Below are positions 59,024 to 60,447 of a stretch of 64,000 nt of DNA, in pieces (position 1 is the first letter of the stretch; the number at the start of each line of letters is the position of its first letter). Made by a program: the position numbers and the translations under genes. The stretch is from the human T2T-CHM13v2.0 reference genome, Homo sapiens. The DNA is taken from NCBI GenBank assembly GCA_009914755.4, contig CP068257.2, positions 31,744,001-31,808,000 on the forward strand, given 5' to 3'. The notes under the pieces are model-generated. The model did no database searches. It saw nothing but the letters and a program-made list of their open reading frames with translations, and was not told where the DNA came from.

Positions 59024-59558
59024 TATTTTTGTATTTTAAAAAATAACAACATGTTCTGTATTTGAATAATCTGCCTTTTTTCAGTTAACAATTTAGCAGC
59101 CTTGTCTTCCCATGTTTTCAAGCATATGTTATACCACCATTTCATGTGGCTGTAGTGGATTATATTGTATCTCAAAATTAGAAAACAGTTCTTTGCAAGA
59201 AACCCTATACTGCCATAATAGGGTATCGCTGTTTTCCACTTTGGTATGGGACAATGACAGCCTTGCCAGGACAACAGGAGCCATTGCCTGGAAGACCAGG
59301 TGGGGAGGCAGCAAGGCCTGCTCAAGGCAGCAGAGGGATGCGCAGAGGAGACACAGAACCTTCCTAGAGTCTAGGGTCCAGTTGTCTCCTGATGACATAA
59401 ATCCTTAAGGTCATTTTAGCTGAAACTATAGGAGGCTCAAGCACATTTCGGTCAAACTAGAAGCAGGTTGGGAATGAAAGGAACATTATTTCCCAGAATA
59501 ATTTTTTCTCTGTTGACTAACTTGAGGTATCTAGATTAACCGTGAGATACAAAATGTT

Positions 59559-59851
59559 GGCCAGGCGCGGTGGCTCACGCCTATAATCCCAGCACTTTGG
59601 GAGGCCGAGGCAGGTGGATCACCTGAGATCAGGAGCTCGAGACCAGCCTGGGCAACATGGTGAAACCCTGTTTCTACTAAAAATACAAAAATGAGCCAGA
59701 CATGATGGTGGGTGTCTATAATCCCAACTACTCAGGAGTTGGAGGCAGGAGAATTGCTTGAACCTGGGAGGCGGAGGTTGCAGTGAGCCGAGGTCGCACC
59801 ATTGCGGTCCAGCCTGGTGACAGAGCGAAACTCCATCTCAAAAAAAAAAAG
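59559..59851 (+). mobile_element. Alu (+), 5' member of an inverted pair; TSD (ga)aatacaaaatgtt (59544-59558 / 59851-59865)
   Basis: ggccaggcgcggtggctcacgcctataatcccagcactttgggaggccgaggcaggtggatcacctgagatcaggagctcgagacc...polyA. Confidence 0.9.
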
Positions 59852-59866
59852 AAATACAAAATGTTT

Positions 59867-60142
59867 GTTTTGAGATGGAGTCTTGCTCTTCATCCAGGCT
59901 GGCGCAATCTCAGCTCACTGCACCCTCTGCCTCCTGGTCCAAGTGATTCTCCTCCCTCAGCCTCCCATGTAGCTGGGATTACAGGTGTGTGCCACCACAT
60001 CCAGCTAATTTTTGTACTTTTAGTAGAGACTGGGTTTTGCAATGTTGGCCAGGCTGGTCTCTTAACTCCTGACCTCAGGTGATCCACCCACCCTGGCCTC
60101 CCAAAGTGGTGGGATTATAGGCGTGAGCCACCCCATCCAGCC
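59867..60142 (-). mobile_element. Alu (-), 3' member of the inverted pair; flanked by caaaatgtt on both sides; ends ~305 bp before exon 5
   Basis: ttgttttgagatggagtcttgctcttcatccaggctggcgcaatctcagctcactgcaccc...ggcgtgagccaccccatccagcc. Confidence 0.88.
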
Positions 60143-60447
60143 CAAAATGTTAAAGGAGAAAAAGATTATCCTAGAAATTGGGATTTACTGAAGTCTAGTT
60201 ACTACAATGGGCACTCTGAGACCTCACAGCCAGAAACACAGTTCTAAAGCTATCAGCCTCTTTGGCCACACAACACACCAATTTTCACACATAAAATGTG
60301 TCCACTGCCAGCCAGTGACCCACTAAAAATGGCATCTTGTTCTTCTTTGGTTGTCGTGTTCACAGTGAATTTGAGGAAACATCAGAAAAGATGTAGGCAG
60401 CTTGGCCATGTTCATTTACATGTGTGCTTGTGATGTTTTTAAAACAG

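What the first reader, a model, noticed from the sequence alone, without database searches (positions are those of the whole stretch)
59544..60151. Inverted Alu pair separated by only 15 bp, ~300 bp upstream of IFNGR2 exon 5
Alu(+) 59559-59851 and Alu(-) 59867-60142 lie tail-to-tail (polyA facing polyT) with a 15-bp spacer, gaaatacaaaatgtt. Inverted Alus this close form long hairpins in pre-mRNA (classic ADAR A-to-I editing substrates). They are known from yeast and human studies to be recombinogenic and under-represented when spacing is below 20 bp, and when intronic near an exon they can promote back-splicing or exon skipping. Exon 5 (160 nt) skipping would frameshift. The target-site logic is also notable. 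The 9-mer caaaatgtt occurs three times (59550-59558, 59857-59865, 60143-60151), showing the second insertion landed exactly on the target-site duplication of the first.
Basis: partly seen in the sequence, partly recalled or inferred. Interest (0 to 1): 0.5.

Follow-up and report, generated by a model that had tools for sequence, protein, structure and literature searches.

The report
Tail-to-tail Alu pair in IFNGR2 intron
Two old Alu repeats inserted back-to-back at the same spot in an intron of the human interferon-gamma receptor 2 gene can fold into a long RNA hairpin; this is an ordinary, already-catalogued kind of feature, and its only notable point is that it lies just upstream of exons that form a published circular RNA.

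Summary
An AluS (+) at 59559-59850 and an AluS (-) at 59866-60142 lie tail-to-tail around a 15-bp spacer (59851-59865). The spacer is the right-hand target-site duplication (TSD) of the (+) Alu, and its last 9 nt are the left TSD of the (-) Alu. Two separate insertions therefore used the same cut site, TGTT/AAAG.

The arms are 81% identical (77% counting gaps). They are predicted to fold into a 238-bp imperfect hairpin (-390.8 kcal/mol, z = -35). The pair lies in IFNGR2 intron 4, 305 nt upstream of exon 5 (160 nt).

Exons 5 and 6 (695 bp genomic, 318 nt spliced) match the published circRNA hsa_circ_0001185 (circIFNGR2). Another antisense Alu starts 20 nt after the exon 6 donor.

The literature says back-splicing is promoted by pairs that span the exons, while same-intron pairs favour linear splicing. 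This pair is therefore more likely a self-neutralising competitor than a promoter of back-splicing. Exon skipping is unlikely at 305 nt. DNA fragility should be weak at this level of divergence.

RNA editing, the order of the two insertions and population variants could not be tested. Verdict: an ordinary, known kind of feature; low interest.

The parts
59544..59558 (+). Left target-site duplication of the (+) Alu (GAGATACAAAATGTT). Its last 9 nt are the first copy of CAAAATGTT.
   Evidence: Direct repeat D4, 15 nt, 93% identical to 59851-59865. It abuts the Alu 5' end, GGCCAGG.
59559..59850 (+). Alu 'A': full-length AluS-like element in the sense orientation of IFNGR2, with an A11 tail at 59840-59850.
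   Evidence: 87.6% identical to AluSx consensus positions 1-282. Metazoa_SRP hits at 63.3 and 21.8 bits. Non-CpG divergence is 8.2%, and 15 of 48 CpG positions have decayed.
59851..59865 (+). Spacer and hairpin loop (GAAATACAAAATGTT). It is the right TSD of the (+) Alu, and its last 9 nt (59857-59865) are the left TSD of the (-) Alu.
   Evidence: In the predicted fold the apical loop is 16 nt, 59848-59863.
59866..60142 (-). Alu 'B': AluS-like element antisense to IFNGR2. It has a stunted tail (TGTTTT, 59866-59871) and a 10-nt internal deletion.
   Evidence: 83.5% identical to AluSx positions 11-282 by blastn; 86.7% ungapped in a global alignment. Metazoa_SRP hits at 43.8 and 34.7 bits on the - strand. 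Non-CpG divergence is 6.3%, and 22 of 48 CpG positions have decayed.
60143..60151 (+). Right TSD of the (-) Alu (CAAAATGTT), followed by AAAGGAG. The empty site therefore read TGTT/AAAG, close to the L1 endonuclease consensus TTTT/AA.
   Evidence: The endonuclease consensus is from established knowledge (Jurka 1997; Feng 1996).
60448..60607 (+). IFNGR2 exon 5 (160 nt). Its 3' splice site is the back-splice acceptor of circIFNGR2 (hsa_circ_0001185).
   Evidence: tblastn match to VKGPFRSNS...YETMAD with AG/GT boundaries. The circRNA is described.
60985..61142 (+). IFNGR2 exon 6 (158 nt). Its 5' splice site is the back-splice donor. The span 60448-61142 is 695 bp, and the two exons sum to 318 nt.
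   Evidence: These match the published 695 bp genomic length (PMC9839739) and 318 nt for exons 5+6 (PMC13045110).
61163..61456 (-). Alu 'C': antisense AluS whose T-tract starts 20 nt after the exon 6 donor. It is a cross-exon partner for Alu A, or for Alu E at 58128.
   Evidence: Duplex energies: A:C -442 kcal/mol and E:C -488 kcal/mol, against A:B -393 kcal/mol.
58128..58420 (+). Alu 'E': sense AluS further upstream in intron 4. It is an alternative partner for B (nested fold) or for C (across the exons).
58730..59023 (-). Alu 'F': antisense AluJ-like element in intron 4. It is an alternative partner for A in the equilibrium fold.
62512..62805 (+). Alu 'D': sense AluS in intron 6. It is the same-intron partner of C and a possible cross-exon partner of B.

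Best explanation
Two independent L1-mediated AluS insertions, tens of millions of years old, used the same endonuclease site (TGTT/AAAG) in what is now IFNGR2 intron 4. This produced nested target-site duplications and a tail-to-tail inverted pair with a 15-bp spacer.

In the pre-mRNA the antisense arm is transcribed immediately after the sense arm. The two arms are therefore expected to snap into a self-contained, imperfect hairpin of about 240 bp. That is a typical ADAR substrate and is removed with the intron.

Because both arms lie in one intron, the hairpin mainly neutralises the two Alus as partners for Alus beyond exons 5-6. It thereby favours linear splicing and acts as a competitor or modulator in the biogenesis of the documented exon 5-6 circRNA (circIFNGR2), not as its driver. 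The downstream pairing element for that circRNA is most likely the antisense Alu 20 nt after exon 6.

At the DNA level, independent CpG decay, an internal deletion and a degenerate centre have lowered arm identity to 77-81%. The palindrome is now largely stabilised.

Shown here: the anatomy, the TSD logic, the pairing potential, the exon context, and the match to the published circRNA boundaries. Inferred: pairing in vivo, editing, and the effect on circular versus linear output.
For: **Anatomy and origin**
- Alu identity, boundaries and TSDs are confirmed.
- Two different TSD lengths (15 bp and 9 bp) share one right-hand boundary, which means two insertion events at one cut site.
- Both elements are AluS-like with similar decay.

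**Pairing potential**
- The arms are 81% identical ungapped and 77% gapped.
- The RNA MFE is -390.8 kcal/mol with z = -35.
- That fold is one hairpin of 238 bp in 33 helices, the longest perfect helix being 23 bp, with a 16-nt loop.

**Gene context**
- Exons 1 to 6 were mapped, and intron 5 contains no Alu.
- The span from the exon 5 acceptor to the exon 6 donor is 695 bp, and the spliced length is 318 nt. These equal the published figures for hsa_circ_001185/0001185.
- Antisense Alu C begins 20 nt after the exon 6 donor.

**Competition between pairings**
- In a 4.7-kb fold, every low-energy arrangement pairs the Alus within their own introns. The MFE is -2093.8 kcal/mol, and the arrangement A:B + E:F + C:D is -2056.2 kcal/mol.
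- Cross-exon arrangements cost 130-220 kcal/mol more.
- The literature states that same-intron inverted Alus favour linear splicing and compete with cross-intron pairs (PMC11263572).

**DNA stability**
- In yeast, instability is lost by 75% homology and falls about 40-fold when the spacer grows from 12 to 20 bp (PMC10164571).
Against: - No editing, structure-probing or splicing data for this locus could be reached.
- The equilibrium fold of the 4.7-kb region does not pair A with B. It nests E:B around F:A and is 37.6 kcal/mol better. The preference for A:B rests on a co-transcriptional (kinetic) argument only.
- A:C (-442 kcal/mol) is intrinsically a better duplex than A:B (-393 kcal/mol), so strand exchange is thermodynamically allowed.
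- MFE predictions for kilobase-long pre-mRNAs bound by proteins are unreliable.
Confidence: 0.7

Rival explanations
1. One reading: the tight pair actively promotes back-splicing at exon 5 or skipping of exon 5. In the skipping case this would yield frameshifted IFNGR2 mRNA.
For: - An exon 5-6 circRNA exists whose acceptor lies 305 nt downstream of the pair.
- Sense arm A is the nearest sense Alu upstream of exon 5, and it is 82% complementary to antisense Alu C just after exon 6.
- If E pairs with C, a compact A:B hairpin would shorten the looped-out distance (one search gives an E:C + A:B solution).
- Upstream inverted Alus changed exon inclusion in RABL5.
Against: - It is cross-intron pairs that promote circularisation. 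Same-intron pairs compete with them.
- B sequesters A, the best-placed partner of C.
- The cross-exon arrangements are 130-220 kcal/mol less favourable than the all-intra-intron ones.
- In RABL5 the skipping effect needed the antisense Alu within about 24 + 68 nt of the exon. Here the distance is 305 nt.
- Intron 5 has no Alu, so exon 5 alone is not flanked by complementary repeats.
Confidence: 0.12
2. A and B do not pair with each other in vivo. They pair in a nested way with their outer neighbours (E with B, F with A), or they are kept single-stranded by proteins. On this view the 15-bp spacing is irrelevant at the RNA level.
For: The unconstrained 4.7-kb MFE gives exactly this nested arrangement, and it is 37.6 kcal/mol more stable than A:B + E:F. 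The E:B duplex (-437 kcal/mol) is stronger than A:B (-393 kcal/mol).
Against: - The order of transcription is E, F, A, B. This lets E:F and then A:B form first.
- Reaching the nested fold would require unwinding two helices of about 230 bp each (inference).
- The loop entropy of a 16-nt loop, compared with a loop of more than 1.4 kb, favours A:B kinetically.
Confidence: 0.13
3. The pair is a DNA-level fragile quasi-palindrome. It would be a present-day hotspot for deletions or inversions in IFNGR2.
For: - The spacer is 15 bp, below the 20-bp limit found in yeast.
- The single-stranded DNA fold is -215.7 kcal/mol with z = -34.
- Close inverted pairs are depleted genome-wide.
- Divergent inverted repeats of at least 75% homology become active in long single-stranded DNA regions.
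Against: - Arm identity is 77-81%. Gross chromosomal rearrangement (GCR) rates in yeast are 58-fold lower at 86% homology and about 1000-fold lower at 75%, and recombination is lost at 75%.
- The centre is asymmetric (A11 against TGTTTT), and mismatches near the centre reduce the effect strongly.
- The pair has evidently persisted through enough time for 15-22 of its 48 CpG positions to decay.
Confidence: 0.04
4. A single-event origin, such as twin priming or template switching during one retrotransposition, rather than two insertions.
For: The two elements share one junction, and both are AluS-like.
Against: - There are two separate TSDs of different length (15 bp and 9 bp), each flanking one full-length element.
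- The two elements differ at 51 aligned positions and share almost no private variants.
- Twin priming produces truncated and inverted parts of a single copy, not two full-length copies.
Confidence: 0.01

Closest known systems
RABL5 (IFT22) intron 2 Alu1(sense)/Alu2(antisense) pair (Lev-Maor et al. 2008, PMC2533698)
   Same: A sense Alu followed by an antisense Alu in the intron upstream of an internal exon. In RABL5 the two base-pair, as shown by editing, and they modulate splicing of the downstream exon.
   Different: In RABL5 the antisense Alu lies 24 nt from the exon, and the effect is lost beyond about 90 nt. Here the distance is 305 nt. Neither editing nor alternative splicing of IFNGR2 exon 5 was shown here.
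Inverted Alus flanking circRNA exons, and the competition model (Zhang et al. 2014, from memory; reviewed in PMC11263572)
   Same: Sense Alus lie in intron 4 and an antisense Alu lies 20 nt into intron 6. Together they bracket exons 5-6, which form the published circRNA hsa_circ_0001185.
   Different: The pair under study lies wholly inside one intron. That is the competing arrangement, not the promoting one. No experiment links any of these Alus to circIFNGR2. The papers held here invoke eIF4A3 or do not address biogenesis.
Alu quasi-palindromes that are unstable in yeast and depleted in the human genome (Lobachev et al. 2000; Cook et al. 2011, PMC3215922)
   Same: An inverted full-length pair with a spacer below 20 bp. 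It belongs to the rare class with an inverted:direct ratio of about 0.07 at spacers of 24 bp or less.
   Different: Homology is 77-81%, not the 86% or more needed for strong instability. The centre is asymmetric.
Alu insertion into the TSD or tail region of an existing Alu ('TSD APE' and CLIQUEs, Cook et al. 2011)
   Same: The second insertion used the TSD of the first. Such re-use of L1 endonuclease sites next to Alus is a described pattern.
   Different: The described bias produces mostly direct-oriented pairs. This pair is the minority inverted outcome.
hsa-mir-1303 precursor family (Rfam RF04106)
   Same: The family consensus is itself a tail-to-tail junction of two Alu 3' ends. The apex of this pair (59809-59900) aligns to it on both strands.
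   Different: The score is 37.8 bits against a gathering score of 107, so it is not a member. There is no evidence of small-RNA processing.

Membership tests
Alu SINE (7SL-derived dimeric retrotransposon) | Dimeric body of about 280 nt, homologous to the Alu consensus and to 7SL RNA | tested here: met
   Blastn to AluSx gives 87.6% over consensus positions 1-282 for the + element and 83.5% over positions 11-282 for the - element. Metazoa_SRP hits fall on both monomers of both elements, with E-values from 4e-15 to 4e-3, all below the gathering score as expected for Alus.
Alu SINE (7SL-derived dimeric retrotransposon) | A 3' A-tail and flanking target-site duplications from L1-mediated insertion | tested here: met
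   The (+) Alu has an A11 tail and a 15-bp TSD matching at 14 of 15 positions. The (-) Alu has a 9-bp perfect TSD at a TGTT/AAAG site, but only a stunted tail, TGTTTT.
Inverted-Alu dsRNA / ADAR substrate | Two oppositely oriented Alus within one transcript, able to form a long duplex | tested here: met
   Both lie in IFNGR2 intron 4. The fold is -390.8 kcal/mol with z = -35, giving 238 bp.
Inverted-Alu dsRNA / ADAR substrate | Clustered A-to-I (A-to-G) editing in both arms | not testable with these tools
   No editing database is available. One paper's supplement is not held. Another lists only differential sites, all in intron 1 and none near this pair.
circRNA-promoting flanking inverted Alus | The two complementary repeats lie in the two different introns that flank the circularised exons | tested here: not met
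   A and B both lie in intron 4. The cross-intron condition is met instead by A or E with C, and by B with D.
circRNA-promoting flanking inverted Alus | A documented back-splice junction at the bracketed exons | tested here: met
   The span 60448-61142 is 695 bp and the exons sum to 318 nt. These match hsa_circ_001185/0001185, reported as chr21:34804483-34805178 (hg19) and as exons 5+6, 318 nt.
circRNA-promoting flanking inverted Alus | Circularisation depends on the repeats, as shown by deletion or mutation | not testable with these tools
   This needs a minigene or genome editing. No held paper addresses it.
Unstable Alu quasi-palindrome (Lobachev class) | Spacer below 20 bp | tested here: met
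   The spacer is 15 bp, and the unpaired loop in the fold is 16 nt.
Unstable Alu quasi-palindrome (Lobachev class) | Arm homology of about 86% or more | tested here: not met
   Identity is 81% ungapped and 77% with gaps.
mir-1303 microRNA precursor family (RF04106) | Score at or above the Rfam gathering threshold | tested here: not met
   37.8 bits on the - strand and 33.7 bits on the + strand, against a gathering score of 107.

The most novel reading that the evidence does not exclude
The tight A:B hairpin could act as a tunable gate on circIFNGR2 output. When interferon-induced ADAR1 edits and loosens it, or a helicase such as DHX9 unwinds it, sense arm A becomes free to pair with the antisense Alu 20 nt after exon 6. 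That duplex is intrinsically stronger than A:B (-442 against -393 kcal/mol). The yield of the exon 5-6 circRNA from an interferon-receptor gene would then be coupled to interferon signalling itself. A second, smaller possibility is that the apex is processed into mir-1303-like small RNAs.
Probability: 0.05. Interest if true: 0.5.

Novelty: already known. Interest (0 to 1): 0.18.

Why it matters
As it stands, it matters little. Inverted intronic Alus, nested Alu insertions, and the depletion and instability of close inverted pairs have all been described. This window alone holds about 80 Alu pieces, making up 31% of its sequence.

The one useful outcome is a concrete, testable layout for a circRNA with a disease literature (colorectal cancer, gastric cancer), whose biogenesis has not been examined at the level of its Alus:
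- the exon 5-6 circle is bracketed by sense Alus in intron 4 and by an antisense Alu 20 nt after exon 6;
- the tight pair is a built-in competitor for those pairings.

If deleting the antisense arm raised circIFNGR2, that would be a clean natural example of the competition model.

Tried and rejected
- **Editing evidence.**
  - Blango & Bass 2016 (PMC4889969) name IFNGR2 among genes containing editing-enriched regions, but the supplement is not held.
  - A rheumatoid arthritis paper lists two 'IFNGR2 intronic' sites that fall outside this window under the hg19 offset used here.
  - A COVID-19 paper's supplement lists four differential sites, all in intron 1, and none in the 3342x-3343x kb range.
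- **hg38 mapping.** My remembered hg38 offset put those four sites on non-A bases. A fitted shift of 9 nt makes all four A and places them inside Alus. However, 27 of 6001 offsets achieve the same, so the mapping is tentative.
- **Lobachev 2000.** PMC313988 is not held. Its numbers were taken from a later paper by the same group.
- **Order of insertion.** Non-CpG divergence makes B look younger (6.3% against 8.2%), while CpG decay makes A look younger (15 against 22 of 48 positions). The order is unresolved, and the TSD geometry fits either order.
- **Single-event origin.** Rejected because of the two distinct TSDs.
- **Kilobase-scale folding.** It gave a nested alternative. I kept this as a rival and did not treat it as the answer.
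- **Scans for a primate empty site.** I did not scan the metagenome or genome collections. The genome collection is bacterial and archaeal, the searches need exact matches, and the chance of finding primate host DNA at this locus is negligible.
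Full report

Yes. The sequence shows the following layout:
- a sense-oriented Alu at 59559-59850, starting GGCCAGGCGCGGTGGCTCACGCC and ending in an A11 tail at 59840-59850;
- a 15-bp spacer, GAAATACAAAATGTT, at 59851-59865;
- an antisense Alu at 59866-60142. Its reverse complement starts GGCTGGATGGGGTGGCTCACGCC. 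On the + strand its tail reads only TGTTTT.

'PolyT' also overstates a six-base degenerate tail.

Each monomer of each element gives a 7SL (Metazoa_SRP) covariance-model hit below the gathering score, as Alus do.

CAAAATGTT occurs at 59550, 59857 and 60143, each time directly abutting an Alu end. About one copy is expected in the whole 64-kb window, and one unrelated copy lies at 15573.

The longer 15-mer GAGATACAAAATGTT (59544-59558) recurs with one mismatch as the spacer.

**2. Target-site logic**

The empty site can be reconstructed as ...CCGT GAGATA CAAAATGTT AAAGGAG...

The (+) Alu carries a 15-bp duplication, GAGATACAAAATGTT. The (-) Alu carries a 9-bp duplication, CAAAATGTT. Both duplications end at the same phosphodiester bond, TGTT/AAAG. 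For an antisense insertion that bond is a near-consensus L1 endonuclease site (consensus TTTT/AA; established knowledge).

Two duplications of different length around two full-length elements mean two separate insertion events at one cut site.

The geometry fits either order of insertion. Divergence does not settle the order either:

| Measure | Alu A (+) | Alu B (-) |
|---|---|---|
| Non-CpG divergence | 8.2% | 6.3% |
| Decayed CpG positions (of 48) | 15 | 22 |

A single-event origin such as twin priming is rejected by the double duplication and by 51 differences between the arms. Insertion next to or inside the duplication of an existing Alu is a described pattern, though it mostly yields direct pairs (PMC3215922).

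**3. Pairing potential**

The arms are 81% identical ignoring gaps and 77% with gaps.

As RNA, 59544-60151 folds into one hairpin of -390.8 kcal/mol (z = -35). The hairpin has 238 base pairs in 33 helices. The longest perfect helix is 23 bp. There are 12 G-U pairs, nine single A:C mismatches and a 16-nt loop.

As single-stranded DNA the fold is -215.7 kcal/mol.

**4. Gene context**

| Exon | Window coordinates | Note |
|---|---|---|
| 1 | ATG at 31805 | |
| 2 | about 43161-43292 | |
| 3 | 49756-49959 | |
| 4 | 55149 to about 55303 | |
| 5 | 60448-60607 | 160 nt, AG/GT boundaries |
| 6 | 60985-61142 | 158 nt |

The pair therefore lies in intron 4 and ends 305 nt before exon 5. Exons 5 and 6 together total 318 nt, which keeps the frame.

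The window is very rich in Alus. It holds about 80 pieces, covering 31% of the sequence. Among neighbouring Alus with a body-to-body gap of 32 bp or less, six pairs are direct and two are inverted. This echoes the genome-wide bias.

**5. The circRNA link**

Two papers describe a circIFNGR2 that fits these exons:
- PMC9839739 gives hsa_circ_001185 as chr21:34804483-34805178 (hg19), 695 bp.
- PMC13045110 gives hsa_circ_0001185 as exons 5 and 6, 318 nt.

The distance from the exon 5 acceptor to the exon 6 donor in the window is exactly 695 bp, and the two exons sum to exactly 318 nt. This fixes the coordinate conversion as window coordinate + 34,744,036 = hg19.

A second circIFNGR2 (hsa_circ_0002660, exons 2 to 6) shares the exon 6 donor.

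Intron 5 contains no Alu. An antisense Alu ('C', 61163-61456) begins 20 nt after the exon 6 donor.

None of the held papers examines Alus in the biogenesis of either circle.

**6. Which Alus pair?**

Duplex energies:

| Pair | Energy (kcal/mol) |
|---|---|
| A:B | -393 |
| A:C | -442 |
| E(+58128):C | -488 |
| B:D(+62512) | -412 |
| E:F(-58743) | -356 |

Energies of whole-region arrangements in a 4.7-kb fold:

| Arrangement | Energy (kcal/mol) |
|---|---|
| Unconstrained minimum: E:B nested around F:A, plus C:D | -2093.8 |
| A:B forced (gives A:B + E:F + C:D) | -2056.2 |
| E:C + A:B forced (cross-exon) | -1962.3 |
| A:C forced (cross-exon) | -1875.5 |

All low-energy states therefore keep the Alus paired within their own introns. 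Cross-exon states cost 130-220 kcal/mol more.

The elements are transcribed in the order E, F, A, B, exons 5-6, C, D. I infer that E:F forms first, then A:B, then C:D. Circles would arise from the minority of transcripts in which C captures A or E before D appears. This is an inference from the order of transcription and from loop size. It has not been shown.

**7. Comparison with what is known**

*Back-splicing.* The review PMC11263572 states that cross-intron inverted Alus promote back-splicing. Same-intron pairs favour linear splicing and compete with them. The pair studied here is of the same-intron kind.

*Exon skipping.* Lev-Maor et al. (PMC2533698) showed that an upstream sense/antisense Alu pair controls inclusion of RABL5 exon 3. 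The effect disappeared once the antisense Alu was moved more than about 68 nt beyond its native 24 nt. At 305 nt, skipping of IFNGR2 exon 5 by this route is unlikely.

*DNA instability.* In yeast, widening the spacer from 12 to 20 bp lowers recombination about 40-fold. Gross rearrangements fall 58-fold at 86% homology and about 1000-fold at 75%. Recombination is lost at 75%, and mismatches near the centre are especially effective (PMC10164571). With 77-81% identity and an asymmetric centre (A11 against TGTTTT), this pair should now be close to stable.

*Scarcity of close pairs.* Close inverted pairs are rare: the inverted:direct ratio is about 0.07 at spacers of 24 bp or less. Part of that comes from an excess of direct insertions.

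**8. What could not be tested**

RNA editing of the two arms, population structural variants, and presence or absence of the Alus in other primates could not be tested with these tools.

**9. Verdict**

- The anatomy, the target-site logic and the hairpin potential hold.
- The suggested consequences need correcting. The pair is more likely a self-neutralising competitor than a promoter of back-splicing. It is unlikely to cause exon skipping at this distance. It is probably no longer a strong DNA fragile site.

It is a known kind of feature in a fully annotated human gene, so interest is low. The one lead worth keeping is the Alu layout around circIFNGR2, which can be tested directly.

Noticed in passing
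window 61163-61456 (- strand): An antisense AluS whose T14 tract begins only 20 nt after the exon 6 5' splice site. It is the downstream repeat shared by both published circIFNGR2 species (exons 5-6 and exons 2-6). An antisense Alu with a long U-tract this close to a donor is also a classic candidate for hnRNP C binding or exonisation.
   Followed up: partly
window 59809-59900 (both strands): The apex of the pair matches the Rfam mir-1303 model at 37.8 and 33.7 bits, against a gathering score of 107. That family's consensus is itself a tail-to-tail junction of two Alu 3' ends. Many other miRNA-precursor models give weak hits here, simply because the region is a long hairpin.
   Followed up: partly
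window 31164-31238: A short 5'-truncated Alu 3' fragment with an A8 tail. It is 98% identical to consensus positions 209-259, and its CpGs are intact. It lies about 570-640 nt upstream of the IFNGR2 start codon (31805), near the 5' end of the gene. The preserved CpGs suggest it lies in an unmethylated promoter island.
   Followed up: no
window 58100-62830: The equilibrium fold of the 4.7-kb region does not pair the two adjacent Alus with each other. It nests Alu 58128(+) with 59866(-) around 58743(-) with 59559(+). This fold is 37.6 kcal/mol better than the nearest-neighbour arrangement.
   Followed up: yes
window 32717-32988, 33109-33362, 34927-35208 (IFNGR2 intron 1): A paper's supplement (PMC11343423) lists four differential RNA-editing sites in an IFNGR2 intron: hg38 21:33404538, 33404873, 33405012 and 33406917. 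They fall on these three Alus if window = hg38 - 33,371,739. That offset was fitted so that all four bases are A, and 27 of 6001 offsets do the same, so the mapping is tentative.
   Followed up: partly
window 59866-60142: The antisense Alu has lost 10 nt relative to the consensus (about ACTGCACTCC, near 59897) and has almost no tail. These could be scars of deletions that stabilised an originally near-perfect palindrome, or they could be ordinary decay.
   Followed up: no
window-wide; for example 17054/17218, 37158/37448, 38447/38748, 54404/54706, 51692/52000: About 80 Alu pieces cover 31% of the window. Among neighbours with a body-to-body gap of 32 bp or less, six are direct (gaps of 9-27 bp) and two are inverted. 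One inverted case is a partial monomer at 52000 with a 20-bp gap; the other is the pair studied here.
   Followed up: partly
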